This document shows positions 2,559 through 42,484 of a stretch of 64,000 bases of DNA, piece by piece. Origin of the DNA: a virus; IMG/VR virus record IMGVR_UViG_3300021962_000023, positions 32,001-96,000 of that record, one strand, 5' to 3'. Below the pieces are notes generated by a model. The model did not search any database, had not been told where the DNA came from, and saw only the letters and a program-made list of their open reading frames with translations. Each line of letters begins with the position of its first letter. Within the stretch, counting starts at the first letter, position 1. The position numbers and the translations under genes are program-made.

Positions 2559-2590
2559 CAAATATACAAAAAATATTTATATTTGCCAAG
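2559..2590 (-). promoter_or_regulatory. Bacteroidota sigma-A-type promoter
   Basis: CTTG-N20-TATATTTG on the minus strand. Confidence 0.75.
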
Positions 2591-14810: not shown

Positions 14811-15642
14811 TTAAATATTCTTTTAATTGGTCTTTTGGTTGCCATCCCAATCTATTTAAGGCATCATCATTAATTCTAATAGTTTCTCTATAATTACCTT
14901 TTACATCATCTACATATCTAATTGGATGCGGTGCGAACCAACTAGCTACTTCATTTAAAGAGTAATTGTGACCCGTTCCTAATTCCCAAGCATCTTCATG
15001 CTTTTCATTACTTTCTGCGATTCTGATTAATCCATCTACAATATCATCAATATGTGTAAAATCTCTCCTTTGCTTACCATCTCCGTGAATTAGAATAGGA
15101 GTACCATTTTTTACAGCTGCCCTCCATAATCCAATTACAGCCGCCATATGAGAGTCTACCAACTCACCGGGCCCATAAACATTATAAAACCTAACTATCT
15201 CCGCATTTAACCCATATACCCCTTTAAACATCTTTATCCACTCCTCTCCCATATGTTTACTCATTGCATAGGGTGATAACATTGGATTGTGATGACGAGA
15301 TGATGAACCTGCGTAAATTAATTTAGATTTATTGTGGTATGCGTATTCAACAACCTGTTTTGTACCATCCACATTTACTGAAAATGTTAGCGTTGGATTT
15401 TTAAATGATGGTTGAATTCTACTTAATGCTCCCAAATGAAAAATATAATCATATGGTGTATTTTTAATATTATCCATTGCTCTAATATCTCCACCCAAAA
15501 ATTTTACATATGGGGAAACTTTAGCTTCAGAACCAATTGATAAATTATCAATTACATGAACTTCATAACCTCTTTTAAGTAATTCAGCTGAAAGAGCATA
15601 TCCAACAAATCCAGCTCCACCCGTAACCAATACTTTTTTCAT
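14779..15642 (-). CDS. NAD-dependent epimerase/dehydratase
   Basis: VLVTGGAGFVG, YxxxK (YAMSK), RFYNVYGP, GDGKQRRDFTHIDD. Confidence 0.92.
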   Translation of the reverse strand: MKKVLVTGGAGFVGYALSAELLKRGYEVHVIDNLSIGSEAKVSPYVKFLGGDIRAMDNIKNTPYDYIFHLGALSRIQPSFKNPTLTFSVNVDGTKQVVEYAYHNKSKLIYAGSSSRHHNPMLSPYAMSKHMGEEWIKMFKGVYGLNAEIVRFYNVYGPGELVDSHMAAVIGLWRAAVKNGTPILIHGDGKQRRDFTHIDDIVDGLIRIAESNEKHEDAWELGTGHNYSLNEVASWFAPHPIRYVDDVKGNYRETIRINDDALNRLGWQPKDQLKEYLNEIKLRNNGL

Positions 15643-15878
15643 TAATCTTCTTTTTCCTTTTTTATAACTTCATCAGCACCACCGGTTGTATATGGTGGTC
15701 TATATGTTGAATTAGTATAATTCCAATTAGAAGTAATTGGTGATTCGAGAATTAATGTTTTATCCTCTACTTCTGCTAATTTATCTTTTAGTATATCCCA
15801 TTGCTTTGGGGTAATATTGAATTCATGCACTCCTTCTGAAAATCCTCTTAACCAAAGGACAAATTCTTTTGATGTCAT
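15642..15878 (-). CDS. Hypothetical protein
   Basis: ORF abutting its neighbours on the coding strand. Confidence 0.55.
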   Translation of the reverse strand: MTSKEFVLWLRGFSEGVHEFNITPKQWDILKDKLAEVEDKTLILESPITSNWNYTNSTYRPPYTTGGADEVIKKEKED

Positions 15879-15880
15879 AA

Positions 15881-16354
15881 CTATTTATTTTTTAATTGTG
15901 ATTTCACATCTATATTATGTATAATTACTTTTTTTGGAGTAAGTTCATTTACATCCATATTTAATTCTACAACATTTCCCAATCCACTTAACTTATATGT
16001 TCTATATGAATCATTTGTTATAATTGGTACTTTACTAACTACTTTTTCATAAAATGCCTTAGCTCCACCTTTCATTTGCAATGATTCTTCTTCTTCATTT
16101 ACAAATTTACCAAAAAACTTTTTTATTAAATCAGGTCTAACATTTGATACTTTTACAGCATGTACTACATCTTTTATTTTAGATACAAATAGTGTGAATA
16201 TAATGGGAGCATCTGATTCTGTATATTTACCCTTAGTACCATCCACATATTCATACTCTTTGATTAAATAAAATCGGCTTCTAACCATATTAGTAGGAAC
16301 AATTTTATTTTTACCATCGATGTATCTACGATATATGGGATTATAGCTGCTCAT
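15881..16354 (-). CDS. Hypothetical protein (weak resemblance to T4 gp2 DNA end protector)
   Basis: FY..Y..PIIF..YRTY pattern; assignment uncertain. Confidence 0.35.
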   Translation of the reverse strand: MSSYNPIYRRYIDGKNKIVPTNMVRSRFYLIKEYEYVDGTKGKYTESDAPIIFTLFVSKIKDVVHAVKVSNVRPDLIKKFFGKFVNEEEESLQMKGGAKAFYEKVVSKVPIITNDSYRTYKLSGLGNVVELNMDVNELTPKKVIIHNIDVKSQLKNK

Positions 16355-17622
16355 TATTTATTTAACATTTTCAATTTAGGTAACTGAAGTTGTTGAAACT
16401 TTGGTTGTACTTTAGTATAAATACCATACTGATTTAAAATAATATTAAATCCTTCGGTCATTTTTTCTAAACTAAAATTCTGTCTATTGTGTTTTGCTAA
16501 TTTAGTTGAATCAGGCAAATACTTACTATAATTTTTATAAACATCTTTGATTATCGGCAATGCTTTTGAAACATTTACATTAAACCATTGTGATTCTTTT
16601 AGTAAGAATTGGTCAGCTGCCGATTCGTGTACATTTTTCAATTCACCTTCCAACAACACTGCTCCACTTTTTAAGAAATCCAAATGCCCACTCCAATTAG
16701 ATACAATTACAGGCTTACCTGTCAAACTGAATTCCAATAGTGGTCTACCAAATCCTTCACCTTTTGTAAAGTTTAACATAGCTTTTACTTTTGGATGTTC
16801 GTATAATCCGTTCATTTGAGATGGAGTTAAATCACCATGCAATAAATAAACCGGAACTTGTCCATAATCTTTACCCAATACCTCTCTAATTTTCTTAATA
16901 GTGTTTTCTCTATCAATTACACTAAATCCTGCTGAAGATGTTTTTAAAATTAATGCGGGTTTAACCTTTTCTTTTTTGAATGCAGTTGCAAATGTTTTAA
17001 TCATCATTCCCACATTCTTTCTATCTTCACCCAAATCACCTCTCAACCAGTGTCCTACAAATAGAAATGCGAAATCTTCTTTAATTGTATCCAATTCAGA
17101 AATACTTGCAACTACTTCAGTTCCAAAATCATTTTCATCAAATCCTTCAAAAAGAACTTCAACTGGTTTTTGTATTTTATGTTGTCCAATTAATTGACCT
17201 GTTTTTTTATCTTGCTCATTATAAACAGTTTTAACTAAACTATCTTTTGAATGCTCGGATGGAACAATAATTAAATCCATTCTATTACATCCGTGAATCC
17301 AATCTAATGCGCAATGTGTAGTTTCAATTGCGGCTGTTATACCAATGTTATAGAATCCCAATGGCTGAAATTCGTTTGGTACAGTAACCTGAATATAGAT
17401 ATCCGGCTTAGTTTCTATTTTTGGAATAATATTATCCACTACCCATTTATGAAATTCGTTATCATAATTCAATGCATCCATTGGAGTCATACCCCATCGT
17501 GTACTGATAACTTTAATATCAAATTTATCTAATTTATAAAGAGAATGTAATAAATCTCTCGCGTGGTCACCATATCCACTTCTTGTTGCTACCGGTGCCT
17601 GAAATACTAATGTTGGTTTCAT
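16354..17622 (-). CDS. GT4-type (GT-B) glycosyltransferase
   Basis: SGYG..AR, FLFVG.W, RKNVG, TKGEGFGRPLLEFSLTGKPVI. Confidence 0.85.
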   Translation of the reverse strand: MKPTLVFQAPVATRSGYGDHARDLLHSLYKLDKFDIKVISTRWGMTPMDALNYDNEFHKWVVDNIIPKIETKPDIYIQVTVPNEFQPLGFYNIGITAAIETTHCALDWIHGCNRMDLIIVPSEHSKDSLVKTVYNEQDKKTGQLIGQHKIQKPVEVLFEGFDENDFGTEVVASISELDTIKEDFAFLFVGHWLRGDLGEDRKNVGMMIKTFATAFKKEKVKPALILKTSSAGFSVIDRENTIKKIREVLGKDYGQVPVYLLHGDLTPSQMNGLYEHPKVKAMLNFTKGEGFGRPLLEFSLTGKPVIVSNWSGHLDFLKSGAVLLEGELKNVHESAADQFLLKESQWFNVNVSKALPIIKDVYKNYSKYLPDSTKLAKHNRQNFSLEKMTEGFNIILNQYGIYTKVQPKFQQLQLPKLKMLNK

Positions 17623-17623
17623 A

Positions 17624-19006
17624 CTATAACTCTATTAACTTAAATTTTTGTTTTGGTTTCCAATTTGTAAATGCCCCTTCCATTCCCTCAACTAATGCCT
17701 CACACATCGCTTCTTTACTCAATCCTCCTTCTGCTAAGAAATGATTTCTACCTTTTAATCCTGCAGATTTTCGTTCTTCTCTTCCAACTCTATACCAATC
17801 CATAATCAATGGTGATACATCTTCAAAATCAACTCTATCATCAAAGATATATGGAGTAGGAACTGAACCCGTTGTTGAACGAACTGGCCAAATTGGTTTA
17901 ACCCAATCTCCCCAAACTACACCTGCTTTTTTATGTCTATCGTGTAATGACCCAATTTCCACATAATCTTCTGCGGTTAATAATTTACCCGTACCTTTAT
18001 CTCTGAATCCACATTGGTCTTGTAATCCACCAGTCACATTTACAATGATAGGTGTTCCCGCCATTACCGATTCTGCGGTTGCTAATCCAAACCCTTCATT
18101 GGAAGCAATATTAATTGTAACATCAGCTATATTATAGAAATAATTTAATTGTTCTTCTGTATATTTGTTTGGTGCAAATATCACATTTGTTTCTGGTAAA
18201 CAACATTCTGCAATAGTTCTCGGTAAATCTGTCCCATGCTCTTGAACCGGTTCGGTGTGCATCAATAAACATACTTTATCTCTATCTTCGGGAGCCAATG
18301 CTTCTACAAACTTATCAAATGCTAATATAACATCAATTGGTTGTTTTCTACGAATGTTTCTATTATTCCAATAAAGAACAAATTCATACTCTTTATCGCC
18401 AAATATAGATTGTTTAAATTCTTTTGGAACTTCTACTGGTTTATACAAATCCGAATTGATACCATGTGGTACATAGCTCACTTGCCAATCAGCCGGTTTA
18501 GTCCAATGTTTTTCTTTATCCCAACTCCAAACTCGTTTAGTAATACCATAAGTTTGTTTTGAAATAGTTCCAATCCAATCACAACTTTCGTAATAATCTC
18601 TATTGTATTTTGGGTCTGGCAAATCATCCCAAATATGATAAAAGAAAAGAGGAACTGATTGTCTAACTTCATGCTCCATTTCATATAACCAAATCCAATA
18701 TCTTGGGTCTGTAAAGTGTAAGATTGCATCCGGCTTTTCCATCATCAATAATTGACGAATGATATCGGCATTACCATACCCATCGGATGGATATATTTTT
18801 ACTTCAGCATCCTTTACCCCAGTTTGCTCTCTTACGCTATCATTCAAATCTAAAATTTTCCCAGCTTCAGGGTGTTTAATTGCTGCACCTAATTGTACCC
18901 AATCGTATCTATCAACAGTTCCCATAACTAATTGTTTGGAAACATTGGCAATACCACTTGTCATTCTTAGGTCATCGGAAAGTAAGAGAATTTTCTTTTT
19001 TGCCAT
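17624..19006 (-). CDS. GT4-type (GT-B) glycosyltransferase
   Basis: NRNIRRKQ, ASNEGFGLATAESVMAGTPII. Confidence 0.85.
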   Translation of the reverse strand: MAKKKILLLSDDLRMTSGIANVSKQLVMGTVDRYDWVQLGAAIKHPEAGKILDLNDSVREQTGVKDAEVKIYPSDGYGNADIIRQLLMMEKPDAILHFTDPRYWIWLYEMEHEVRQSVPLFFYHIWDDLPDPKYNRDYYESCDWIGTISKQTYGITKRVWSWDKEKHWTKPADWQVSYVPHGINSDLYKPVEVPKEFKQSIFGDKEYEFVLYWNNRNIRRKQPIDVILAFDKFVEALAPEDRDKVCLLMHTEPVQEHGTDLPRTIAECCLPETNVIFAPNKYTEEQLNYFYNIADVTINIASNEGFGLATAESVMAGTPIIVNVTGGLQDQCGFRDKGTGKLLTAEDYVEIGSLHDRHKKAGVVWGDWVKPIWPVRSTTGSVPTPYIFDDRVDFEDVSPLIMDWYRVGREERKSAGLKGRNHFLAEGGLSKEAMCEALVEGMEGAFTNWKPKQKFKLIEL

Positions 19007-20173: not shown

Positions 20174-21409
20174 TTAAATGATTGGATTTTTTCTGGTATC
20201 TTCATTAATAATATCATCTATAAATGAAAGTTTTTCAGGTAAAAATGTATCATTAAATATCATACCATGTGTAGTATGGGCTACTAAATATTTTTTAGAA
20301 TTAACTCTATCCCAACTTGTAACTTTAGCACTTTTAAGATAGTTGATGTATTTTTCTAAATATTCTTTTAGTTTAACAGACTGAATATTATTAATTTTAT
20401 CTTCATATAAACTTATTAACTTCGTTCTATGTTCATCAAAATTAACAGGGTTGTACCACCAAGGAAAACGAACATAGTGAAAATTAATTAACTCATGTGA
20501 TTCATTTAATTCTTCTAAAAAATCAAAAAAATCATAAGCGTTTAATAAAGAAGCAGTATATTGGAAATCATATGTGATATTTTTATATTGAGTCATAGCC
20601 CATTTTAGTACCATCATATTTTTCTTAAATACTTTTGTATCAAATCCGGTTCTAACATATTCACCAACTTCACCTAATCCATCTATTGATATTGAAAAAT
20701 GTACTTTTCTAAAATCTTTCAAATATTCAAATATAGTTTTTCCTTTATATTTTAAAATACTGAAGTTTGTATTATACATTAAGGATATATCTTTCTTATT
20801 CTTTAATGAATCTAATAATTTAAAATGCTCCTCCAATACAAAAGGCTCACCACCGGCAAAATATAATACTTCTATATTTTTCATAGATTCCTCATTTAAT
20901 TTGAAATCTACTTTACTTAAAGATTCTACTTTCTCTTCACCAAATGCAAGAACTCCCATATTTGTTTTATAGAAATCCTCTTTCTCTTCTTGCCATTTAG
21001 TTGAATAAGAGTCATTGCAAGTTCTACATTTAAAATTACAAATATTAGATGGTCTTAAATCCAATGATACAAATTCCGTAGCTACTGTACCATCGAATTT
21101 TTCATCACTAATATATTTTTTATCAATATCATTCAATCTCGCGCTATGATGTTCATTCCATCTAATTCTGGATGATTTAATATCTTGCTTTTCTAAATCG
21201 TAACAAGCACTACAATAATCGTTTTGTACACCATTTACCATATCCAATCGAAGTTTTTTATATTCTTCTGAATTGAATGCATCTTCTATCGAAGTTCCCT
21301 TTAAATTAATATCGGTAAATGCCTTTTGTGAATCACAACATGGTTTTGCTGTTCCATCCATATACCCATTTAGGTGTATAAAAGGTAATATACAAAAACT
21401 CTTATTCAT
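20174..21409 (-). CDS. Radical SAM protein with N-terminal twitch-like Cys domain
   Basis: CILPF..PCC..CSACY, LDLRPSNICNFKCRTC (CxxxCxxC), FAGGEPF, YNTN, SIDG..EYVR. Confidence 0.88.
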   Translation of the reverse strand: MNKSFCILPFIHLNGYMDGTAKPCCDSQKAFTDINLKGTSIEDAFNSEEYKKLRLDMVNGVQNDYCSACYDLEKQDIKSSRIRWNEHHSARLNDIDKKYISDEKFDGTVATEFVSLDLRPSNICNFKCRTCNDSYSTKWQEEKEDFYKTNMGVLAFGEEKVESLSKVDFKLNEESMKNIEVLYFAGGEPFVLEEHFKLLDSLKNKKDISLMYNTNFSILKYKGKTIFEYLKDFRKVHFSISIDGLGEVGEYVRTGFDTKVFKKNMMVLKWAMTQYKNITYDFQYTASLLNAYDFFDFLEELNESHELINFHYVRFPWWYNPVNFDEHRTKLISLYEDKINNIQSVKLKEYLEKYINYLKSAKVTSWDRVNSKKYLVAHTTHGMIFNDTFLPEKLSFIDDIINEDTRKNPII

Positions 21410-24002: not shown

Positions 24003-24302
24003 TTAGTTTTTTACGAATACACCATTTACAGTCTTACCTGTTCTATCTTTGATTTCATTCCAAGCTGCTTCCAAACAATCAGCGGGTTCTAATCCCAATT
24101 GTTTAGCTAAAATGATAAGTGTTACAAATGAATCACCAATACCATCTTTGATTTCCTCATCTTTGGATTTCAATAATGCCCCAGCGGTTTCACCCACCTC
24201 TTCCAAAACTTTCAATAATTGTTTTGGTGCATTTTCTTTTTTTAGGATATCCTTATCCGATGCCCATTGGGACACATTTTCAATTAAATTATCAAATGTC
24301 AT
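24003..24302 (-). CDS. MazG-like NTP pyrophosphohydrolase
   Basis: KVLEEVGE..EIKDGIGD motif. Confidence 0.85.
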   Translation of the reverse strand: MTFDNLIENVSQWASDKDILKKENAPKQLLKVLEEVGETAGALLKSKDEEIKDGIGDSFVTLIILAKQLGLEPADCLEAAWNEIKDRTGKTVNGVFVKN

Positions 24303-24583: not shown

Positions 24584-25297
24584 TTAGTTTGAAATTTCTA
24601 CTAAATAGTATTTACAAGTAAACTCATCAATTTTGAATTCAACATGGGCTAAACCATCAGTAGATACTTTTAATTTAGCAGTAGTTGCTTCTTTATTAGC
24701 CGTTAAGATTTCTTTTAAATATTTCGCTGAGAATGAAATTGGTTTTACATCACCATCATATCCTTTAACTGCGGTAAATGTAACTCTATTTGTAGAGATT
24801 GATGAATAACCGATTGCCATTTTTAAATCACCACCTTCGGTAAATACAGTGAATGTATCGATATCAGATAATGCACCTTTTGCTTTGATAAATTTATCAA
24901 TCATATTCGATGCCATTTCAATACCAATACCAAATTCTGGCATTTGCTTTAAATCAGGAACAGATGGAATAACACCCAAATCTGCTAATTGATATGATGT
25001 TTCGGTTTCATCCGAAGATAATTTCAATACAGTAGCTTTATCACCAACTGAATCTACTTTTAGATTAATATCACTATCCAAAATACCCACCAAATTCTTT
25101 AATAAAGAAGTTGTGTAAATACCAATGTTAAATGGCGTTGATGTAAATCCATCAAAATCCACTTCTCCTAACATCGTTTTGTCATCCGAAATGAAACGAA
25201 CTGATAATTTGTTACCTTCAGCGTTCCATGCTACTGATTCGATTACTCCACCTAATGAATACTTTTGGATAAATCGTAAAAGATTGTTTTTGTTCAT
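24584..25297 (-). CDS. Sliding clamp, T4 gp45-like
   Basis: 237 aa with a clamp-like pattern (FNIGIY..LL, Y.LAD, KVSTDGLAHVEF..KYYLV); adjacent to PolB and the clamp loaders. Confidence 0.8.
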   Translation of the reverse strand: MNKNNLLRFIQKYSLGGVIESVAWNAEGNKLSVRFISDDKTMLGEVDFDGFTSTPFNIGIYTTSLLKNLVGILDSDINLKVDSVGDKATVLKLSSDETETSYQLADLGVIPSVPDLKQMPEFGIGIEMASNMIDKFIKAKGALSDIDTFTVFTEGGDLKMAIGYSSISTNRVTFTAVKGYDGDVKPISFSAKYLKEILTANKEATTAKLKVSTDGLAHVEFKIDEFTCKYYLVEISN

Positions 25298-25331
25298 AAC
25301 TTTTGTTTTTTAAATTTTAATTATTGTTCTA

Positions 25332-25363
25332 CAAATATACTACAAATTTTTGATAATACCAAG
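25332..25363 (-). promoter_or_regulatory. Bacteroidota sigma-A-type promoter
   Basis: CTTG-N20-TATATTTG upstream of the clamp gene. Confidence 0.78.
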
Positions 25364-26098
25364 TCTTTTTATATGATTATATAAATTTTCTGCATAATTT
25401 TTATTTTCTTCAGAAGTGGCATGTTGATGGGAGTCTGTATATTGTTTATATTCGCCATCAAACCTATTATCATCTGAATATTCTGTGTTTAAAAATACTC
25501 CATTCCAAATAAATGGTATTTCTTTCGATTTTAAATAGTATGTTATTAGTTGATGGTTCTTATACCAGTTTATATAATCATCTTCTATATTTGATAATTT
25601 TTCTAACATTTGGAATTCATTTATACCATCCGGATGTTCTTTATAATATCCCCACGGATTTAAAGCAAATGGTTCAACCCCACCATCCGATTTGTAGTAT
25701 TCTCGGCGTGATGGATAACTATACATTACTAATACCAAATCAGGCTTTACTTTATCTACGAATGTTAATATAGTTCTTGCTATATAATCATTACTCCTAC
25801 CACTATGTCCAAAATTCAAATCAACACCATTATTTACTAATTTGGAAAAATAATGAGGCCAAGTTTCATCATCATTTACACCAATTCCTTCTGTATGTGA
25901 ACACCCTACACTCATAACTTTGTATCCTTGTTTTAAAAAGGAATCTCCTCTAAATCCAAGTTCATTGTAAGTGTATGTATTTTTATTTGAATTATCGGAG
26001 CCTGAGCCTTGGAATCTTCTTCCTTTTCGTTCACTCAATTTCCATCGAAATGATGTAACATCAAATGTTATTGATTTCCAAAATTTTAATCCTTTCAT
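25340..26098 (-). CDS. SGNH-hydrolase-like protein inserted between PolB and the clamp
   Basis: YNELGFR, GCSHTEGIG, NFGHSGRSND.I.R, DSHQHAT. Confidence 0.65.
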   Translation of the reverse strand: MKGLKFWKSITFDVTSFRWKLSERKGRRFQGSGSDNSNKNTYTYNELGFRGDSFLKQGYKVMSVGCSHTEGIGVNDDETWPHYFSKLVNNGVDLNFGHSGRSNDYIARTILTFVDKVKPDLVLVMYSYPSRREYYKSDGGVEPFALNPWGYYKEHPDGINEFQMLEKLSNIEDDYINWYKNHQLITYYLKSKEIPFIWNGVFLNTEYSDDNRFDGEYKQYTDSHQHATSEENKNYAENLYNHIKRLGIIKNL

Positions 26099-26099
26099 A

Positions 26100-28661
26100 T
26101 TAAAAACTAAAAAACTTTTTAGCGGTTTGAGCTTCTACCGATGCTTTTTCCCATTTTAAGGCGTTGTAAAAATCATCAACTTTGTTTTCTAACTCTGCTT
26201 TATAAATCATATCCCTATCAACATATTGTTCTACGAAGTCCATAATTTCTTTAGGGTCATTATAATCTTTAAATGCCACAGTATCCAATCCTAATGGGTT
26301 CGTTTTAAGATATACCCACTTAACTTTATCACCATCTCTAATTGGTTCATTCTTAAATGGACAATTGAAAAACTTTAATAATCGATTGTAAGTGATACCA
26401 GCTTTAACATGCGCCGGAGTTCCTTTTTCAAATGTCGCAATTGCTTCACCACCATCTTTTCTCCAAGTTCCATTATCATATTTACTCAACTCTTTGATTG
26501 CTCCACCTTTGGCTATTTTATTAACTGGCAGATTAACCATATTGTTTTTGAATTCTAATAATTTCTTATCAACATATTCGTTATCTTTACCCATAAGAAT
26601 ATCTTTCAACATACCACTCATTTGGTCCTGAAATGCTTTGGGAAACGATGAACGAACTACATCTAATCCTTTTACATCCAACTTATCACATTTGATACCA
26701 TTCTTTAATACCATCCATTGTGCATATCGTTTCTTTGCTACCCAAAATCCTGCTTTACTGATATATTCTTTCTTAATCTCAAAACGATGTTTCTCTTTTG
26801 GAATAAAAAAGAATCGCTCTGCTAACATATCATAGAATGTATTTAAAAATGATTGAGTTTCTTCAGCGATTGTGTTTACTTCCGAAGCCATTCGTTGTTC
26901 ATCAAATTCTTTGTATTCTGGGTATCTATGTTTTACTAAAGGTTCTGCCATCATATAGATTGAATCCGTATCGATGTACACATTATAATCTTCTTTTGTA
27001 CCCAACTCCTTCCAATATTTGATATTAGCCATTTCAGCTGTTTTCTTAATAACTACTTGTCCTGTCAATGTTACAGCTTCAGCGTTATCCACATCATAGA
27101 ATCTAAATGCCGGTAATCCTAACACACCATACATTGAGTTCAAAAGAATCTTTTGTACTAACTGACGTTTAGCATAGAATTCGTATTTTTCGGTATCACC
27201 TGCTTCACCATACTTTTTCTCTAACTTTCTGAATTCCACACGCTTATCAAACCAGTTGTTAAGAATATCTGCAATTAGACCGGGTTTATCTTGTGTATAA
27301 AGAACTCCATTTGCCGCAACACCCAAATTACTATCCTTAATAACTTCCTTCAGTTCCTGAGTCGTATATTCGTAAGTATCACCATCTTTACCAACTAATT
27401 TATAAGTGGTATCCAATCCTTTAATATTGGCTTCCGCATCCCAATTCTCAATCTTACCAATTTTTGTTTCGGGACTGATATTTAGGGTCATAATGATTGA
27501 TGGATATAGAGATGTTAAGTCCAAGTCATAAATCCAATCGTACTTACCAACAATAGGTTCTTTTACATATGCTCCAATGAATTTCTCCTGATTGTTATCT
27601 TTCAATGCTTGCATTCGTTCCTTTCTATCTTTTGGTTTATTGGTTGCTACCAATCCCTTCGTTTTGAGATATCCCAAACAAGCTCCCTCTAACCACTTAG
27701 AGGAATAGATGTAATCTTCATACGGAACAAATCCAGCGTGACAAACGGCTCTACATAATTCAATAAATTGTAATTTTTCATCCATTGCTACAACCAACTC
27801 CACATCGACAATATTATACTCAATGAATTTTTCTAAATCGGTTTCGAATAAATCATCCAAACTTCCTTCATACTCTACCTTACCTCTACCTAACTCTTTG
27901 GTAGCAATGTAGTTCAATGTATAAGATGCTTCTAATGTATAAGTGTAGGTTTTGTATAGATTGATATAATCCAAAATACTTACACCACCAAAACTAAACT
28001 TCTCTCTATATGGTGACCAGAATGCTTCTCCGATACGAGATAATCTTTTAGCATGTCCTTCACCACATACATTCTTAATACGATTATACAAATACGGAAT
28101 ATCAAAGAAATCAATATTCCATCCCGTTAGAATAGTCGGGTCAACTTGTTGATAATAATTAAGAAATGCAAGTAACAAATTTTTCTCATTATCGAAGATG
28201 TGTACTTTAACCTCACGGCCGTTTTTACTAAAATTACTAGCATTATTTTTAACTTTTCTTTCTTTATCCAATACAAACACTTCATATTCTTTTGTAATAG
28301 AATCGTGTGCTGCTATTGCTGTGATTTCGTTTTGAGCTTCTCTTGTATTTGGTAGACCTGATATCATTTCTACCTCAATATCAAATGTTAATACAGTATG
28401 TCCTTTTGATGGTAAATCATTATCATAAATATCTACTAACACTCTCGTTGTTTCCGGCACATCCGATTCAAATAAATCTTCAGCATCTTCTTTTTCCCAC
28501 TTCGAAATACGAGTTAATTTATCGCCATACATTGATAAATGTTGACCATATGGGTCTTTTTTATAAGCATATTTTCTATATGGAAATGTCTGATACCCAT
28601 TTGTATCATCCCATAAATGAATTAAATTTTTTGCTCTTTCGTAATAGATATTTTGATACAT
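26100..28661 (-). CDS. Family B DNA polymerase, T4 gp43-like
   Basis: Exo DIEV, TGWN..FFDIPY, YN..DV; Pol DLTSLYPS, KILLNSMYG, YIDTDS. No intein. Confidence 0.97.
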   Translation of the reverse strand: MYQNIYYERAKNLIHLWDDTNGYQTFPYRKYAYKKDPYGQHLSMYGDKLTRISKWEKEDAEDLFESDVPETTRVLVDIYDNDLPSKGHTVLTFDIEVEMISGLPNTREAQNEITAIAAHDSITKEYEVFVLDKERKVKNNASNFSKNGREVKVHIFDNEKNLLLAFLNYYQQVDPTILTGWNIDFFDIPYLYNRIKNVCGEGHAKRLSRIGEAFWSPYREKFSFGGVSILDYINLYKTYTYTLEASYTLNYIATKELGRGKVEYEGSLDDLFETDLEKFIEYNIVDVELVVAMDEKLQFIELCRAVCHAGFVPYEDYIYSSKWLEGACLGYLKTKGLVATNKPKDRKERMQALKDNNQEKFIGAYVKEPIVGKYDWIYDLDLTSLYPSIIMTLNISPETKIGKIENWDAEANIKGLDTTYKLVGKDGDTYEYTTQELKEVIKDSNLGVAANGVLYTQDKPGLIADILNNWFDKRVEFRKLEKKYGEAGDTEKYEFYAKRQLVQKILLNSMYGVLGLPAFRFYDVDNAEAVTLTGQVVIKKTAEMANIKYWKELGTKEDYNVYIDTDSIYMMAEPLVKHRYPEYKEFDEQRMASEVNTIAEETQSFLNTFYDMLAERFFFIPKEKHRFEIKKEYISKAGFWVAKKRYAQWMVLKNGIKCDKLDVKGLDVVRSSFPKAFQDQMSGMLKDILMGKDNEYVDKKLLEFKNNMVNLPVNKIAKGGAIKELSKYDNGTWRKDGGEAIATFEKGTPAHVKAGITYNRLLKFFNCPFKNEPIRDGDKVKWVYLKTNPLGLDTVAFKDYNDPKEIMDFVEQYVDRDMIYKAELENKVDDFYNALKWEKASVEAQTAKKFFSF

Positions 28662-28662
28662 A

Positions 28663-29775
28663 CTATGCTCTTAATTTTTCATTTAATAATTTAATCATCT
28701 TACCATCATTTAATGATAATTCTTTTGCTCTTTCTATACTCTTAATAGATTGCTCCAATCTGAATTCATTATTATCCAATAATTTATCCAATGTTTCAAA
28801 CAAATCTTTTTTGAATTTAAAGAACATCCCATCTGGCTCAATCTCTCTATAACAATCTGATTCCTGATATATCATAGGCGTTCCATTCATCATACAATCG
28901 GTTGCAGCAACACTCCATCCATAATTTGTTTGTCTCATTTGAACTCCAACGGTACAAGATTGTAACTTTTTATAGTAATCATGCTTAGTTACCTTCGTAT
29001 TATCAATCCAACTATGTTCCGGCTTACCATCCAATTGTGGCACCCATACAATAAAATCTTGTCGTTTTTCTCTATACTCTTCCATTAATTTAATAAAAGC
29101 AGGGTATCCTTTATATGCAGCTGCTCTATGATTAAATACAATGATGTTTTTCTTTGGTTGCGGAGTTTCTATTATTTTAGAATTATCTACTCCCAAATTC
29201 CACACTACAAAGATATCATTTAATTTTTGAATAAACAAATCATTGAACCATAATTTTGCTTCTTCCAATACTCTATTCTTTTGGTCTTGTGTATTTAAGA
29301 AACAAGTTTCCATTTGAGATACGCCCAATAATTCTATTGGCATCCATCTCCATTTATTTTTTCTATCTTCGGAGTTGCACGATTTCATTTCCCACCAATG
29401 CCCATACCCAATGATTTTAGTATCAAAATCATTTTTATATCTACCTACTTGCGGCCAATCTGGTAAATGTGAATAGATTACATCATAATTTAATGTTTCC
29501 ATTAATCTATTCATATCCGGTGGATATGTTCTCATTTTAATCATATCACCTGAAAATGGTATGATGTGTTGTTTCACATTTATCAAATTCAACTTTTTAA
29601 CTGGCTGCGGTAGTATGATATTCCAAAAGAATTCACCCTCCGATTCCAATCCTTTGATGTGATTGTATATAACATCTACAAAGGAATCTTTTTCAATATT
29701 ACCAGAGTTAGTGATATTTGGTATTACTAATACTTTTCTGGCTTTATTGTAATCTATTGTTTCCCAAAATGTCAT
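28663..29775 (-). CDS. GT-B glycosyltransferase, candidate DNA-modifying enzyme
   Basis: YDVIYSHLP, IVFNHR..YKG, WSVAATDCMMNGTP (GT4-like EA.x.G.P position); directly upstream of PolB. Confidence 0.65.
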   Translation of the reverse strand: MTFWETIDYNKARKVLVIPNITNSGNIEKDSFVDVIYNHIKGLESEGEFFWNIILPQPVKKLNLINVKQHIIPFSGDMIKMRTYPPDMNRLMETLNYDVIYSHLPDWPQVGRYKNDFDTKIIGYGHWWEMKSCNSEDRKNKWRWMPIELLGVSQMETCFLNTQDQKNRVLEEAKLWFNDLFIQKLNDIFVVWNLGVDNSKIIETPQPKKNIIVFNHRAAAYKGYPAFIKLMEEYREKRQDFIVWVPQLDGKPEHSWIDNTKVTKHDYYKKLQSCTVGVQMRQTNYGWSVAATDCMMNGTPMIYQESDCYREIEPDGMFFKFKKDLFETLDKLLDNNEFRLEQSIKSIERAKELSLNDGKMIKLLNEKLRA

Positions 29776-29776
29776 A

Positions 29777-31003
29777 TTATCTCCCCACTTCTTTTAAGTA
29801 ACTTTCTTTCATTTGTTCCCAAGTCATTCCAATAGCATCTACATAAAATAGAACTTCCGGTTTGATTTTACCATCTTCAAACAATTTTTCATATCGTTTG
29901 ATTGCTTTATCTTTCCACCATTTTACAGTGTATTCATTTCCATCGGCAAATTTCTTTTTAAGAACTAAATCTTTTTCTTCGATTTTAGAACAAAGGAACT
30001 CATTACCATTCTCATACATTTGTGCAAAATATACACCTCTTTGGAATCCATGGTCATAAGCGTTACCTTTGATACCCAACTCTTTGAAAATCGCCTGAAT
30101 AATCTTTTGTTTGATTCCACTTACAGGTCCGTTTCTATCGTAACCCATATTAGCACCATTTCGTTCTCTCTCATCCATAATGTGCATTTTATACCATTCT
30201 GAACGATTTTCTTTTAACCATTGATGCCATGGGTCATATACCTTATCATCCGGCTTTGTAGAAATCTTACCTTTGGATTCTCCCAATGTTTTGAAATGAG
30301 GAATACCATTATATTGTGAGTGGATACCATATAAAGATGTTGTACCAACTCCAATCAATGGGTTATTGTATTTCTTTTGCCAGTAATCTCTAATTTCAGG
30401 TGCGGTTGCCAATGCTGCAATTAACTTACCACCCAAAAAATTGTAACCAAATGGTTGTGTTGATACAATAGTAGTTGCAATAGTGGTACAATTCAATTTA
30501 CCATTCTGAAACTTATCTTCCTTTTGCCATCCAATGTAATTATCTCTAACTCCTAATGATGTAATATCCGAACCTAAACAAATCTGCCCTAATATCTTAC
30601 CACTTGTTCTATCTTTTACATAGCACTTTACATTACGACCTGGGTTAGCTTGGAATTCCATTGTATGAATTAATCTACGGATTTCAGTCCATCTAGTAGA
30701 TTCTTTTGGATTATCATCTACAATATCGACATAAGGGTCTATTGATTGAATTTCCGCAATAGTTAATTCCTTATTCATTATGTCCGTAGGTTTCCACAAC
30801 GAATCGTAGTGAGATTGTAATACAGGTAATTTTTTCATATTACCAATTAAATCTTCATTCCACTCCATCCATTTTTTGTATAGAGTTTGTTCTTCAACTG
30901 ACATTTCTTTAAGATAATCTAAGTTCTCAATAAACTTCTTTTTCATCTCATCGTAGTCAAATACCTCTGTGTTGGTTTGTTCACCTGTATCCCAAAATTT
31001 CAT
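29777..31003 (-). CDS. DUF4338/DruA-like protein
   Basis: NPGRN..YV.D..SGKILG.I.LGSD...RD.YIGW, STQPFGYNFLGGKL.A.L, TTSLYG..SQYN. Confidence 0.8.
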   Translation of the reverse strand: MKFWDTGEQTNTEVFDYDEMKKKFIENLDYLKEMSVEEQTLYKKWMEWNEDLIGNMKKLPVLQSHYDSLWKPTDIMNKELTIAEIQSIDPYVDIVDDNPKESTRWTEIRRLIHTMEFQANPGRNVKCYVKDRTSGKILGQICLGSDITSLGVRDNYIGWQKEDKFQNGKLNCTTIATTIVSTQPFGYNFLGGKLIAALATAPEIRDYWQKKYNNPLIGVGTTSLYGIHSQYNGIPHFKTLGESKGKISTKPDDKVYDPWHQWLKENRSEWYKMHIMDERERNGANMGYDRNGPVSGIKQKIIQAIFKELGIKGNAYDHGFQRGVYFAQMYENGNEFLCSKIEEKDLVLKKKFADGNEYTVKWWKDKAIKRYEKLFEDGKIKPEVLFYVDAIGMTWEQMKESYLKEVGR

Positions 31004-31029
31004 ATTTTAGATTTTATTATTATGTTTTA

Positions 31030-31061
31030 CAAATATACGAAAAATTATTAGTATTACCAAA
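31030..31061 (-). promoter_or_regulatory. Bacteroidota sigma-A-type promoter for the DUF4338-GT-PolB unit
   Basis: TTTG-N20-TATATTTG. Confidence 0.8.
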
Positions 31062-31857
31062 ATTTAACGGATATTTCTGAATCTGGTTCAATTGTAGTAT
31101 GGTGCTGAACACCTTTATTATATTCTCTAGCATTTTTAGGATAAGGCCTAACTTCGTGTTTTAACCTCTTAATCAAATCTTTCTTCTCCTTTTTATCTGC
31201 TCCTATGATTTGTATGTATCTATGCTTTGGTGGTTCTTCTCTTCTCCAAAATTCTTTGTAACCATCTTTACCGATTTCTCTACGAAGATGTTCTAAATTA
31301 CCACTACCCCATTTGGTAAACACAGTCCTACTATGAATCCATTTAAATGGGTCATTTGATAGAGAGATACCATAATTTGGCATTAGGGCAATATCAGTAT
31401 TTAACCCCTGATAAATCCAATTGGTTGCTTGATAAATTCCTCCCAAATGTTCTTGTCCGTTATCTGCATAGGAAATAAGTACTTTGATATTCTTATCATT
31501 TTCTCTGAACCATTTGAATGATTGTCCTAATGCATATGATTCTATATTTGAACCATATCCATCATCACAATATAAACGAGTCAATTCCAAAATATTATCT
31601 TTGGTCAATCCCTCACATACCGATGTAGATGCTCTCGCACCTACGGGAAATCCATAAACCATACATCCAATTAGAATCTCATCATCACCAATTACATTTT
31701 GATTATCAGTTTTGTAAAATATACCCAATGCATATCTACAAGCAGTCCAAGCGTGAGTATAGTGTTTTTTAACAATAATCTCTTTGGCTACATTACTATT
31801 GATTTCTCTTATGGATACTTTACTCGTATCACAATATAACTTATTAACTTCTTTCAA
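31054..31857 (-). CDS. Mom-family GNAT DNA-modification protein, paralog 1
   Basis: KKHY, GCMVYG.P, LELTRL, ES..L..S, ISYAD..H.G.IYQATNWIY.G. Confidence 0.85.
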   Translation of the reverse strand: MKEVNKLYCDTSKVSIREINSNVAKEIIVKKHYTHAWTACRYALGIFYKTDNQNVIGDDEILIGCMVYGFPVGARASTSVCEGLTKDNILELTRLYCDDGYGSNIESYALGQSFKWFRENDKNIKVLISYADNGQEHLGGIYQATNWIYQGLNTDIALMPNYGISLSNDPFKWIHSRTVFTKWGSGNLEHLRREIGKDGYKEFWRREEPPKHRYIQIIGADKKEKKDLIKRLKHEVRPYPKNAREYNKGVQHHTTIEPDSEISVKFW

Positions 31858-32605
31858 TTGGTTCTAATTTATGTATTTCTTCAATAAATTCCTCTTTTGC
31901 TTTTGGATATGGTAACGATGGATACTTTAAAGATTTTAATAACTTCTTTTTTTCCCTACCACTCAAAAGTATATAAACATATCGATGCTTTCTCGGTTCT
32001 TTTTTAATCCAAAATGGTACGGATACCATTGTTTGGATTATCTTTGGGTCATTAGTACCATATCTTACAAAAGATGTTCTACTATGATGCCATTCATCAT
32101 CTTCCTTCCACTTAAAACTCCAACTATCATTTGGTCTGATTCGATTTCCCTGATATATCCAATTTGTTGCTTGATATACAGTTCCTAAATGACCTGCTTT
32201 TGGGTCTGAATACGATACTAATGCTTTGATATGTGATGCGTTTTCTCTCAACCATTCAAATGATTTACCAACAAACCAACTTTCAATATTACTACCATAT
32301 CCATCAAATACAAATAAACGGGTTAGTTCTAAAACCTCCGTTCTATCTAATAGTTCCGAAATGGATGCGCCGGAATGTCTACCAACCGGGTCACCATAAC
32401 AAGCTACTCCAATAAGTTTTTCGTTTACTCCACCAAAGAATTTGTGTTCATCGTTTGAAACATGAAACAAACCAATAGCATAAGATACCTTCGTCCATAT
32501 ACCACTATAATGGTTATTGACGATGATATCTTTTGCTACATTTTTATTTATTGCTCTTACGATTAATTTAGAAATATCACAATATAACTTATTAGGTTCT
32601 TTCAT
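31844..32605 (-). CDS. Mom-family GNAT DNA-modification protein, paralog 2
   Basis: NNHY, GVACYGDP, LELTRL, VSYSDPKAGHLGTVYQATNWIYQG, KHRY. Confidence 0.85.
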   Translation of the reverse strand: MKEPNKLYCDISKLIVRAINKNVAKDIIVNNHYSGIWTKVSYAIGLFHVSNDEHKFFGGVNEKLIGVACYGDPVGRHSGASISELLDRTEVLELTRLFVFDGYGSNIESWFVGKSFEWLRENASHIKALVSYSDPKAGHLGTVYQATNWIYQGNRIRPNDSWSFKWKEDDEWHHSRTSFVRYGTNDPKIIQTMVSVPFWIKKEPRKHRYVYILLSGREKKKLLKSLKYPSLPYPKAKEEFIEEIHKLEPIERS

Positions 32606-32789
32606 AAGGCCACTTTATCATGTGTGTCCACGTTTGGTTTGTAACTATTTTTTTAATGTTAGCAGGGGATACTTTATAGTTCCTAGCAATAACATTTATA
32701 TTCCTATGACCTATTTTGTATAGTTCTCTGATTTGCAATATCTGCTCTTCAGTCAATTTGTGCATTGGATGCGATTCTCCTCTTAACAT
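32592..32789 (-). CDS. Stand-alone HTH domain of the kind found at HNH homing-endonuclease C-termini
   Basis: RGESHP..KLTEEQI..IR..IARNYKVS..I..I..W.H; no nuclease domain. Confidence 0.65.
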   Translation of the reverse strand: MLRGESHPMHKLTEEQILQIRELYKIGHRNINVIARNYKVSPANIKKIVTNQTWTHMIKWPYERT

Positions 32790-32831
32790 ATGTCTAATAT
32801 AACCAATTTTTTTGATAATCACAAATTTATT

Positions 32832-33095
32832 TTACTTTAAATGTTCATTTAATGCATTTACATAGGTTAATTTCGAAGATGCTCCGGTGAATCTATCCAC
32901 TTCTTTTCCATCTTTTTCGATAATTACCGTAGGTACGGAACGGATTCCGTATTTTGTAGCTTCATCGTATGCCACATCAACATCATAATCTTCAAATATT
33001 ACATTTGAAAATTGAGTCTTTACTTCGTTCATAACCGGAGCTAGTGCTCTACAAGGTCCGCACCATGCTGCGGAGAATTTTTTAACTGTTACCAT
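32832..33095 (-). CDS. trxA: Thioredoxin
   Basis: WCGPC, IRSVPT. Confidence 0.95.
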   Translation of the reverse strand: MVTVKKFSAAWCGPCRALAPVMNEVKTQFSNVIFEDYDVDVAYDEATKYGIRSVPTVIIEKDGKEVDRFTGASSKLTYVNALNEHLK

Positions 33096-42115: not shown

Positions 42116-42484
42116 TTATTTTGCCCATTTGTTTCTAGTCACCAATTGTGAGATAACCGAATAAACTGCAAGGTCTTGATAGGTATCTTCAATCGATTCT
42201 CCTACCTCATCTGGCTGACCTAATACTACTAATTGTTTTAATCTTTGGATTTTATCATTTTTTCTGAACCATAATCCACTTAATGATAACTTAACATCTT
42301 CTTTGGTTTGAAGTGCCGTTCCTACCGAAATGTTACCAGGTCCGTAGTTTCGTTGTTTCTTACAAAATGTAACATACATTTCGTCTAAAATGTTTTTGAA
42401 CTCATCCGTCATTTCAGGATATGTTTCTTCGCAATATGAGATTGCGGATACATTTTCAATTGTTGAACCTTTTTCTTTTTCCAT
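42116..42484 (-). CDS. DUF1599 / nucleotide-modification-associated domain 1-like protein
   Basis: KKQ.NYG, R..DKI.RL..L, ES.EDT..DL..Y. Confidence 0.75.
   Translation of the reverse strand: MEKEKGSTIENVSAISYCEETYPEMTDEFKNILDEMYVTFCKKQRNYGPGNISVGTALQTKEDVKLSLSGLWFRKNDKIQRLKQLVVLGQPDEVGESIEDTYQDLAVYSVISQLVTRNKWAK

What the first reader, a model, noticed from the sequence alone, without database searches (positions are those of the whole stretch)
28663..32605. Candidate new DNA-hypermodification cassette: two Mom-like GNATs, a DUF4338 protein and a glycosyltransferase directly upstream of PolB
Four consecutive, tightly packed genes precede the replicative polymerase. Mu Mom (GNAT fold) converts adenine to N6-(1-acetamido)adenine to block restriction, and T-even phages use GT-B enzymes to glycosylate bases. 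Two Mom paralogs, a DUF4338 protein and a GT together suggest a multi-step or multi-context modification, such as an acylated adenine further glycosylated or two sequence specificities. No hydroxymethylase or TET-like gene is seen in the window, so the GT acceptor is unexplained by the T4 hmC route. The DUF1599, MazG and PhyH genes in the window could contribute.
Basis: partly seen in the sequence, partly recalled or inferred. Interest (0 to 1): 0.82.

Follow-up and report, generated by a model that had tools for sequence, protein, structure and literature searches.

The report
Replisome-embedded Mom/DruA/glycosyltransferase DNA-modification island
An abundant uncultured freshwater T4-like phage carries, just upstream of its DNA polymerase gene, two Mom-type adenine-modifying enzymes, a third acyltransferase of the unexplained Druantia DruA family and an optional sugar transferase, which probably make a DNA decoration not yet described.

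Summary
Five tightly packed minus-strand genes run into PolB: a small HTH, MomA, MomB, a DruA/DUF4338 protein and a GT-B glycosyltransferase.

- **Mom paralogs.** Both keep seven of the nine Mu Mom residues that mutagenesis showed to matter, including R111 and S124. They differ most in the HTH-like insertion thought to contact DNA.
- **DruA-like protein.** It has a GNAT fold. Mu Mom ties for the best structural match, and relatives are fused to ParB_N or UDG domains.
- **GT.** It is a divergent GT4-type enzyme found only in viruses.
- **Phyletic pattern.** Six near-complete relatives (95-100% by CheckV, this genome included) hold all three families despite three gene orders. Two complete relatives lack all three and carry a different enzyme set in the same slot.
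- **Limits.** The GT is optional: it shows an exact one-gene indel and a paralog swap. Marine phages have DruA-like genes without Mom. A single multi-step pathway is therefore not shown.
- **Correction.** Mom chemistry is now known to be Gly-tRNA-dependent (PMC13219725).
- **Shared end peptide.** GT, DruA-like and MomB share a terminal aromatic peptide resembling PolB's conserved aromatic tail.

This scan already reported the same kind of locus on other DNA (e1-5697811, e1-5805493). No paper found describes it.

The parts
32592..32822 (-). 76-aa HTH protein that overlaps MomA by 14 nt. It precedes the Mom gene(s) in nearly all relatives that have them.
   Evidence: PF02796 HTH_7 at E 3.6e-5 (24.2 bits, cutoff 23.8) and a weak Mor-family hit at E 0.033. 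Position conserved.
31844..32605 (-). MomA, a Mom-family GNAT (253 aa). It is the accessory paralog, absent in some relatives.
   Evidence: PF25680 at E 2.4e-43. Hits PDB 8bv8 (Mu Mom) at E 2e-8. H58, Y59, R111, S124, D149, Y159 and W181 are kept.
31054..31857 (-). MomB, a Mom-family GNAT (267 aa). It is the paralog kept in genomes with a single Mom and ends in K-F-W.
   Evidence: PF25680 at E 5e-44. 45% identical to MomA. Catalytic residues kept. The C-terminal [FY]W is conserved in orthologs.
31057..31065 (-). Codons for the C-terminal K-F-W of MomB (terminal aromatic peptide).
29777..31003 (-). DruA/DUF4338-family GNAT-fold protein (408 aa). It has a disordered N-terminal M-K-F-W-D peptide.
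   Evidence: PF14236 at E 1e-19. PADLOC DruA1 at 5e-21. Model pLDDT 84.8. VIA-align: Mu Mom 8bv8 Z 8.9 over 172 aa, tied with AAC(6')-Ib.
30989..31003 (-). Codons for the N-terminal M-K-F-W-D of the DruA-like protein.
   Evidence: Residues 1-12 have pLDDT below 50.
28663..29775 (-). GT-B (GT4-like) glycosyltransferase (370 aa) with N-terminal M-T-F-W-E. It is an optional gene in the clade.
   Evidence: Model pLDDT 84.3. Foldseek MshA E 4e-12, TM 0.70; phage HY126 DNA GT 9ir0 E 3e-9. Virus-only clusters. Exact-ORF indel.
29761..29775 (-). Codons for the N-terminal M-T-F-W-E of the GT.
26100..28661 (-). Family-B replicative DNA polymerase (853 aa). Its C-terminus K-K-F-F-S-F is conserved as FF[SGAT]F in every relative checked.
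   Evidence: PF00136 and PF03104, PHROG 262 at E 1e-183. C-termini.
25340..26098 (-). 252-aa protein with a weak SGNH/GDSL-like hit and N-terminal M-K-G-L-K-F-W. It is also present in relatives that lack the island.
   Evidence: PF13472 at E 0.0025, below cutoff..
24584..25297 (-). Sliding clamp (gp45-like, 237 aa). In the other two gene orders the DruA-like gene lies directly after it.
   Evidence: PCNA_C at E 0.0025, weak. Position relative to PolB and the clamp loader.
24003..24302 (-). MazG-like pyrophosphatase (99 aa).
   Evidence: PF03819, 22.4 bits, cutoff 22.
32832..33095 (-). Thioredoxin. It is the upstream anchor of the variable slot.
   Evidence: PF00085 at E 2e-19. Also the anchor in relatives and in Mel-JY01.

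Best explanation
The block HTH-MomA-MomB-DruA-GT is a DNA-modification island in the variable slot between thioredoxin and PolB, and it is probably co-transcribed with the replisome genes.

**Best-supported part.** MomA and MomB are active Mom-type GNATs. They aminoacylate N6 of adenine in double-stranded phage DNA from a charged tRNA. By analogy with Mu, the donor is Gly-tRNAGly and the product is 6-NcmdA. The two paralogs have diverged mainly in the HTH-like insertion that is modelled to contact the major groove, so they most likely cover different sequence contexts.

**Inferred.** The DruA-family protein is a third GNAT that also works on DNA. It either modifies another base or context, or further acylates a Mom adduct.

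**Weakest step.** The GT4-type enzyme adds a sugar to DNA or to one of these adducts. It is an optional, exchangeable decoration.

**Also inferred.** GT, DruA-like and MomB carry a short terminal aromatic peptide like the PolB tail. I read this as a docking tag for a shared replisome partner, most plausibly the sliding clamp, which would couple modification to replication.
For: **1. Both Moms look active.**
- PF25680 at about 150 bits against a cutoff of 27.1.
- H58, Y59, R111, S124, D149, Y159 and W181 of Mu Mom are invariant in 15 phage sequences. The source paper shows each of these is needed for activity (PMC13219725).

**2. The paralogs have split roles.**
- In the insertion (Mu 170-212), MomA and MomB types are 25% identical to each other, against 61-77% within each type.
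- In the core the figures are 50% between types and 71-74% within.
- Copy number varies from 1 to 3. MomB is the copy that is kept.

**3. The DruA-like protein is a DNA-linked GNAT.**
- GNAT fold, with Mu Mom tied as top hit at Z 8.9 over 172 aa.
- The model shows a helical insertion at residues 253-316 between strands 238-248 and 317-328. By my reading of GNAT topology this is the beta6-beta7 position of Mom's essential insertion.
- Relatives are fused to ParB_N (P0129, P0130 over cutoff) or to UDG (P0148).
- The gene sits among replisome genes in three gene orders here. In cyanophage S-SM2 it sits between gp44 and gp62.

**4. Phyletic pattern.**
- G000, G001, G002, G005, G011 and G012 hold Mom, DruA-like and a GT of this family.
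- Complete genomes G008 and G009 (PolB 85-86% identical) hold none of the three.

**5. The slot is a DNA-modification hot spot.**
- Relatives hold N6_N4 methylases, GmrSD_N-like genes and an HATPase_c_3 gene there.
- G008 holds Asn-synthase-like, 2-hydroxyacid dehydrogenase and methylase-like genes instead.

**6. Terminal aromatic peptides.**
- Five of the ten flagged ORFs among 234 are five consecutive genes.
- The peptides are conserved in orthologs down to 46% PolB identity.
- They also occur on the alternative GT and on methylases in the slot.
Against: - No chemistry was measured, and the phage is uncultured.
- Mu residue R151, essential in Mu, is K/V/N in MomA types and G/E in MomB types. 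The dimer residue W48 is not kept. The donor or the mechanism may therefore differ.
- DruA and Mom profiles show no significant sequence relation: hhalign probability is below 1%. Mom only ties with an ordinary aminoglycoside acetyltransferase in the fold search.
- DruA-like genes occur without any Mom in S-SM2, Mosig and HTVC008M, so DruA does not need Mom.
- The GT is missing from eight loci anchored on PolB and Trx and is replaced by a 29%-identical paralog in others. It is also lost as an exact ORF in a relative's contig, so it is not essential to the rest.
- The GT fold is generic GT4. The genome has a large separate glycosylation cluster at 8.5-19 kb, so its acceptor may not be DNA.
- The presence/absence pattern could reflect one or a few indel events in related genomes.
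Confidence: 0.55

Rival explanations
1. The four genes are independent cargo in a hypervariable slot. The Moms make ordinary 6-NcmdA as in Mu. The DruA-like GNAT and the GT have unrelated jobs, for example acylating a protein, tRNA or metabolite, or glycosylating a virion protein or host glycan like the large sugar cluster elsewhere in the genome. They sit together only because this slot collects accessory genes.
For: - The GT is optional and swapped.
- DruA-like occurs without Mom in marine phages.
- In G001 the Moms lie about 18 kb from DruA-GT.
- The slot also holds unrelated genes in relatives.
- A large glycosylation cluster exists at 8.5-19 kb.
- The GT fold is generic GT4.
Against: - All three families are kept together through three different gene orders and are lost together in G008 and G009.
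- The GT is always next to either DruA-like or PolB.
- The shared terminal aromatic peptide links GT, DruA-like, MomB and PolB.
- DruA relatives are fused to ParB_N and UDG.
Confidence: 0.3
2. The DruA-like protein is an anti-defence decoy. It would be a phage copy of the Druantia type I DruA subunit that interferes with the host's Druantia complex and does not modify DNA.
For: - It matches the defence-system models: PF14236 at E 1e-19 and PADLOC DruA1 at 5e-21.
- It stands alone without DruB-E in the annotated neighbourhood.
Against: - GNAT-core residues are strongly conserved across 47 diverse relatives.
- The gene is embedded in replisome modules of distant T4-like phages.
- Fusions to ParB_N and UDG point to an enzyme acting on DNA.
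- No host is known, so nothing shows that the host carries Druantia I.
Confidence: 0.05
3. The terminal FW/FF peptides are not a protein docking tag. They would be a side effect of a nucleotide-level signal (for example AAATTTTGG at gene ends), or would bind some partner unrelated to replication.
For: - MomB's end and DruA's start both read AAATTTTGG.
Against: - Orthologs vary the codons and flanking residues but keep an aromatic pair: NYW, SFW, TFW and NFW in MomB, and S/N/T/Q/K at position 2 of the N-terminal M-x-F-W peptide.
- PolB keeps FF[SGAT]F at its extreme C-terminus in all clades checked. From my own knowledge, T4-type polymerases bind the clamp there.
Confidence: 0.1

Closest known systems
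Phage Mu Mom (PF25680; PDB 8bv8; Silva et al. 2026, PMC13219725)
   Same: - MomA and MomB are clear family members with the GNAT fold.
- H58, Y59, R111, S124, D149, Y159 and W181 are kept.
- The insertion corresponding to Mu 175-209 is present.
- The expected role is protection of phage DNA from restriction.
   Different: - Here there are two tandem paralogs (1-3 in relatives) in a lytic T4-like phage, inside the replication operon. Mu has a single late gene under Com/C control.
- R151 and W48 are not kept.
- The first ~30 residues of Mu Mom, including its basic 11-19 stretch, are missing.
- MomB has a C-terminal aromatic tail.
- The genes travel with a DruA-family GNAT and a GT.
DruA (DUF4338) of Druantia type I anti-phage systems (PF14236; PADLOC DruA1)
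   Same: - Same protein family by HMM.
- Aravind and colleagues call DUF4338 a GNAT domain (PMC10853773). The model here agrees.
   Different: - It is encoded by a phage, alone, without DruB-E, among PolB, clamp and clamp-loader genes.
- It carries an N-terminal FW peptide.
- The biochemical role of DruA itself is not known, so the comparison gives no mechanism.
Glycosylated pyrimidines of T-even and related phages (T4 hmC with AGT/BGT; RB69, DLP3 and HY126 5hoC arabinosylation, PMC13326640)
   Same: - A GT-B enzyme encoded beside replication genes.
- The HY126 DNA glycosyltransferase 9ir0 is among the fold matches (E 3e-9, TM 0.61).
- The GT gene is variable between close relatives, as in T-even phages.
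   Different: - No ThyA-family hydroxymethylase or hydroxylase is present in the genome, so the usual hydroxyl acceptor is missing.
- The GT is no closer to DNA GTs than to MshA, BshA or PimA.
DruA-like genes of marine T4-like cyano- and pelagiphages (for example S-SM2 SSM2_144, Mosig_00022, S-SCSM2R ORF152 annotated 'mom', PMC12801897)
   Same: - Homologous at 25-34% identity.
- Embedded in replication gene blocks.
   Different: - Those phages have no PF25680 Mom.
- They have no relative of this GT.
- Their DruA-like proteins lack the N-terminal FW peptide.

Membership tests
Mom (PF25680) | Profile match over the curated cutoff | tested here: met
   150.8 and 148.6 bits against a cutoff of 27.1. 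Both hit PHROG 1384. MomA hits PDB 8bv8 at E 2e-8.
Mom (PF25680) | Essential catalytic residues R111 and S124 | tested here: met
   Invariant in all 15 phage sequences aligned with Mu Mom.
Mom (PF25680) | Other residues whose mutation cuts activity (H58, Y59, D149, Y159, W181) | tested here: met
   All are invariant. The residue list comes from PMC13219725.
Mom (PF25680) | R151 (essential in Mu) and W48 (dimer contact) | tested here: not met
   At R151, MomA types have K/V/N and MomB types have G/E. At W48 the residues are N/S/D/A. The alignment around 151 may be imprecise.
Mom (PF25680) | HTH-like insertion at Mu residues 175-209 | tested here: met
   A segment of equal or greater length is present in the alignment and includes W181. 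No structure of these paralogs was predicted.
Mom (PF25680) | Uses Gly-tRNAGly and makes 6-NcmdA in dsDNA | not testable with these tools
   Needs biochemistry. The genome encodes tRNA-Gly(UCC) and tRNA-Gly(GCC) within a 23-tRNA array, which is not specific.
DruA / DUF4338 (PF14236) | Profile match over the cutoff | tested here: met
   71.4 bits against a cutoff of 27. PADLOC DruA1 at E 4.8e-21.
Druantia type I defence system | DruA encoded in an operon with DruB, DruC, DruD and the DruE helicase | tested here: not met
   The neighbours are Mom, GT, PolB, clamp, thioredoxin and RNR. The element is a phage genome. DruB-E were not searched genome-wide.
GT-B glycosyltransferase, GT4-like | Two-Rossmann-domain GT-B fold | tested here: met
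   Foldseek: MshA 3c4q E 4e-12, TM 0.70, with 500 PDB hits at E<=1e-3. An atlas GT4 cluster matches at TM 0.79.
GT-B glycosyltransferase, GT4-like | Sequence-profile membership (Glycos_transf_1 / Glyco_transf_4) | tested here: inconclusive
   22.8 and 16.3 bits, both below their cutoffs. No PDB sequence hit. No PHROG or NCBIfam hit.
T4-type hmC glucosylation system | dCMP hydroxymethylase or hydroxylase (ThyA family) that makes the acceptor base | tested here: not met
   PF00303 is absent from the complete 198.5-kb genome. The control genomes scored positive.
T4-type hmC glucosylation system | GT specifically related to T4 AGT or BGT | tested here: inconclusive
   Neither is among the top 50 PDB rows. 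A 'DNA alpha-glucosyltransferase' appears only at rank 24 of BFVD with TM 0.47.

The most novel reading that the evidence does not exclude
The island would be a replication-coupled assembly line for a new sugar-bearing adenine.
- The Mom paralogs (R151 replaced) load amino acids from charged tRNAs onto N6-adenine in different sequence contexts. At least one donor would carry a hydroxyl, or the carboxamide itself would serve as acceptor.
- The DruA-family GNAT caps or extends the adduct.
- The exchangeable GT glycosylates it.
- All of them ride on the sliding clamp through FW end-peptides.

This would also give the first biochemical role for the DruA family. It would imply that Druantia type I uses a Mom-like nucleic-acid acylation.
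Probability: 0.12. Interest if true: 0.9.

Novelty: new variant of a known kind. Interest (0 to 1): 0.64.

Why it matters
- Mom-type, tRNA-dependent DNA modification was explained only in 2026, and only for a single enzyme in Mu. Here it appears duplicated and diversified.
- It is permanently associated with two further enzyme families in a phage clade that holds this stretch in metagenomes of 15 studies of fresh, estuarine and coastal waters.
- The locus offers natural controls: close relatives that lack the whole island, and relatives that lack only the GT.
- It gives a concrete handle on DruA, whose function in Druantia type I is unknown.
- If the GT acts on DNA, there must be an acceptor other than hydroxymethyl- or hydroxy-pyrimidines. 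That would be a new class of glycosylated base.

Tried and rejected
- **Clamp docking.** Complex prediction of the clamp with DruA-like residues 1-66 gave no answer (score 0.08). It says nothing either way.
- **DruA against Mom by sequence.** hhalign found no significant relation with a shallow alignment (A1) or a broad one (A5). The link rests on fold only.
- **Isolate databases.** blastn of the cassette and tblastn of the GT against 50,697 phage records found no match.
- **Prokaryote genomes.** MomB has no relative there.
- **GT profile against PDB sequences.** 0 hits.
- **Promoter and terminator scans.** Counts equal the shuffled expectation, so no operon boundaries can be read from them.
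- **Foldseek of the DruA model against PDB.** No hit at E<=1e-3. Only the VIA-align wide search gave usable Z scores.
- **RNA-library contigs.** Contigs from a freshwater metatranscriptome (X15, mostly 95% identity or more) cover parts of DruA-like, MomA/HTH, PolB and the clamp. DNA carry-over cannot be excluded, so I do not count this as proof of expression. Uncovered parts mean nothing.
- **Phage tRNA-Gly genes.** I considered them a specific donor supply and rejected that here, because they are two members of a 23-tRNA array about 60 kb away.
- **First literature search.** It was badly phrased and returned nothing useful.

Full report
**What is there**

The window is bases 32001-96000 of a 198,534-bp IMG/VR virus record that CheckV rates complete. 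GC is about 31% and nearly all genes lie on the minus strand.

In the direction of transcription the region reads as follows:
- RNR large and small subunits
- a 346-aa unknown
- thioredoxin (32832-33095)
- a 76-aa HTH (32592-32822)
- MomA (31844-32605)
- MomB (31054-31857)
- a DruA/DUF4338 protein (29777-31003)
- a glycosyltransferase (28663-29775)
- PolB (26100-28661)
- a 252-aa protein
- the sliding clamp (24584-25297)
- MazG (24003-24302)
- clamp-loader subunits gp44 and gp62

Gaps are 1 nt on either side of the GT, and the HTH, MomA and MomB genes overlap by 14 nt. No terminator-like site lies on the coding strand inside the block. The consensus scans are no better than shuffles, so co-transcription is inferred from packing alone.

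The nearest isolate is Microcystis phage Mel-JY01, with PolB 49% identical. It has thioredoxin, two small unknowns and then PolB, with no such block.

**The two Moms**

Both hit PF25680 at about 150 bits against a cutoff of 27.1. They are 45% identical to each other.

Mom chemistry is now known. Mu Mom transfers glycine from Gly-tRNAGly to N6 of adenine in dsDNA, and the adduct rearranges to 6-NcmdA. R111, S124 and R151 are essential. H58, Y59, W48, D149, Y159 and W181 matter, and an HTH-like insertion at about residues 175-209 is required (PMC13219725).

I aligned Mu Mom with 15 sequences of this clade:
- H58, Y59, R111, S124, D149, Y159 and W181 are invariant.
- R151 is K/V/N in MomA types and G/E in MomB types.
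- W48 is not kept.

Divergence between the paralogs is concentrated in the insertion. There, MomA and MomB types are 25% identical, against 61-77% within each type. In the core the figures are 50% between types and 71-74% within.

Copy number is 1 to 3 in relatives. When only one copy is present it is the MomB type.

My reading is that both are active and have split by DNA context. Because R151 is replaced, the donor may not be identical to Mu's.

**The DruA-like protein**

It matches PF14236 (E 1e-19) and PADLOC DruA1 (5e-21). The AlphaFold model (pLDDT 84.8) has these parts:
- a disordered N-terminal peptide (residues 1-12)
- a helical N-domain
- a GNAT core with a helical insertion between strands 238-248 and 317-328, which by my reading of GNAT topology is the beta6-beta7 position of Mom's insertion

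In a search of 48,161 PDB representatives that does not depend on Foldseek, Mu Mom (8bv8) is the top row at Z 8.9 over 172 residues. It ties with AAC(6')-Ib. Profile-profile comparison with Mom is not significant. The relation is therefore at fold level only.

A profile search of 1.8 billion representatives found 1547 relatives. Some are fused to ParB_N, to a UDG-superfamily domain or to DUF3102. I read ParB_N and UDG as Rosetta-stone hints of a DNA substrate.

Homologs occur in T4-like pelagiphages and marine cyanophages. In S-SM2 the gene lies between the clamp-loader genes gp44 and gp62. Those phages have no PF25680 Mom.

One paper annotated such a cyanophage gene as 'mom' on structural grounds (PMC12801897). 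Aravind's group calls DUF4338 a GNAT (PMC10853773).

Following a lead from earlier notes of this scan, I confirmed one point. The only tRNA of pelagiphage HTVC008M is a tRNA-Gly with an ACC anticodon, 3.9 kb from its DruA-like gene. That is compatible with a Mom-like use of Gly-tRNA but is not a test of it.

**The glycosyltransferase**

Sequence profiles barely see it. There is no PHROG, NCBIfam or PDB-sequence hit.

The model (pLDDT 84.3) is a GT-B fold nearest to retaining GT4 enzymes such as MshA, BshA, PimA and PglA. The DNA arabinosyltransferase of phage HY126 (9ir0) is among many similar rows (PMC13326640). Its nearest clusters are virus-only 'hypothetical proteins'.

The genome has no ThyA-family enzyme, so the known hydroxyl acceptors are not made. 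What the sugar goes onto is unknown.

**Comparative genomics**

I retrieved loci by DruA, by GT and, to avoid ascertainment bias, by PolB. Three gene orders recur:
- **Order A:** Trx-HTH-MomA-MomB-DruA-GT-PolB-clamp, as in this window.
- **Order B:** Trx-HTH-Mom(s)-variable genes-GT-PolB-clamp-DruA, in relatives with PolB about 53-60% identical.
- **Order C:** PolB-clamp-DruA-GT, with the Moms about 18 kb away (PolB 71% identical; G001).

Among the 29 PolB-anchored close relatives that also include the thioredoxin anchor:
- 6 have the full order A.
- 8 lack the GT.
- 5 have a 29%-identical GT paralog upstream of DruA.
- 3 have only MomB.
- 7 have none of these genes.

Whole-record searches show that the complete genomes G008 (201,940 bp) and G009 (209,443 bp) lack Mom, DruA and this GT family altogether. 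G000, G001, G002, G005, G011 and G012 hold Mom, DruA-like and a GT of this family.

In G008 the slot holds different genes:
- an asparagine-synthase-like amidotransferase
- a 2-hydroxyacid dehydrogenase
- a weak PLP-enzyme match
- a 756-aa unknown
- two N6_N4-methylase-like proteins

In order-B relatives the variable genes include N6_N4 DNA methylases, GmrSD_N-like proteins and an HATPase_c_3 protein.

A contig of a close relative in an RNA library joins 28658 to 29773. This is an exact loss of the GT ORF.

Taken together, the slot is a hot spot for DNA-modification and conflict genes, and the three families are retained together through rearrangement. The GT is an optional, exchangeable member. 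The pattern is not independent across genomes, so it supports functional linkage but does not prove it.

**Terminal aromatic peptides**

The motifs are:
- GT and DruA-like begin M-x-F-W-D/E.
- MomB ends [FY]-W.
- PolB ends F-F-x-F.
- The 252-aa neighbour begins MKGLKFW.

Of 234 ORFs in the genome, ten match a loose terminal-aromatic pattern. Five of those ten are these five consecutive genes. By my arithmetic the chance is about (10/234)^5 times about 230 positions, which is roughly 3e-5.

The peptides are conserved in orthologs down to 46% PolB identity, with varied flanking residues. They also occur on the alternative GT, on methylases and on small ORFs in the slot. Marine DruA-like proteins lack them.

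From my own knowledge, T4-type polymerases bind the clamp through an aromatic C-terminal tail. Clamp-binding motifs at extreme N-termini are also known, for example in human DNA ligase I and E. coli Hda. Clamp docking is therefore my preferred reading. The single complex prediction gave no answer and counts for nothing.

**Occurrence**

Near-identical sequence is held by metagenomes labelled freshwater, estuary, aquatic and marine. Runs from 15 studies hold at least part of the stretch, and eight runs hold half or more of its sampled words. A metatranscriptome run (X15) carries contigs mostly 95% or more identical to parts of the block. This is not proof of transcription.

**Verdict**

This is very probably a DNA-modification island built around Mom-type enzymes. 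The proposed acyl-then-glycosyl pathway is only one possibility, and I rate it at about 0.12.

I rate the individual steps as follows:
- about 0.8 that the Moms modify adenine in phage DNA
- about 0.5 that the DruA-like protein acts on DNA
- about 0.35 that the GT does

I found no paper describing Mom, DruA and a GT together. This scan has already reported the same kind of locus on other genomes.

Noticed in passing
window 24584-31857 (termini of five consecutive genes): A terminal aromatic peptide occurs on five consecutive genes: N-terminal M-x-F-W-D/E, or C-terminal [FY]W or FFxF. The genes are the 252-aa protein, PolB, GT, DruA-like and MomB. The peptide is conserved in orthologs and also occurs on methylases and an alternative GT in relatives. 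It may be a clamp-docking tag.
   Followed up: partly
L195:822-9991 (complete relative G008): Relatives that lack the island carry a different enzyme set in the same Trx-PolB slot. It comprises an Asn-synthase-like amidotransferase, a 2-hydroxyacid dehydrogenase, a weak PLP-enzyme match, a 756-aa unknown and two N6_N4-methylase-like proteins. This may be an alternative DNA-modification cassette.
   Followed up: partly
L113:2901-8001, L134:4422-7971, L027:9329-10870, L136:3229-4749: Variable genes inside the island in relatives include N6_N4 DNA methylases (some ending in EFFG or DYW), GmrSD_N-like proteins below cutoff, and an HATPase_c_3 protein.
   Followed up: partly
window 8564-19006, 2577-3629, 5379-6224: A large sugar cluster holds several GT2 and GT1/GT4 enzymes, an NAD-dependent epimerase and a hexapeptide acyltransferase. 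A GHMP kinase and a HAD phosphatase lie nearby. Mel-JY01 has glycosyltransferases at a similar position. The target is unknown.
   Followed up: no
window 20174-21409: A radical SAM/SPASM protein (411 aa) lies between the PD-(D/E)XK nuclease and the clamp-loader genes.
   Followed up: no
genome G000:C1:128-9780 (outside the window): An array of 23 tRNA genes, including tRNA-Gly(UCC) and tRNA-Gly(GCC), plus a tmRNA gene.
   Followed up: no
L157:10992-11065 (Pelagibacter phage HTVC008M): The only tRNA of this phage is a tRNA-Gly read with an ACC anticodon. It lies 3.9 kb downstream of the phage's DruA-like gene.
   Followed up: partly
L069:6640-7251 (G002): A third, shorter Mom-family gene (203 aa, ending QQWFG) lies between PolB and the clamp in a relative.
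   Followed up: no
window 45918-47186: A 422-aa protein has only a sub-threshold family-A polymerase match (29.5 bits, cutoff 34.3), alongside an intact PolB.
   Followed up: no
window 42116-42484: A DUF1599 protein ('nucleotide modification associated domain 1', 25.1 bits, cutoff 25) lies next to the gp32 SSB gene.
   Followed up: no
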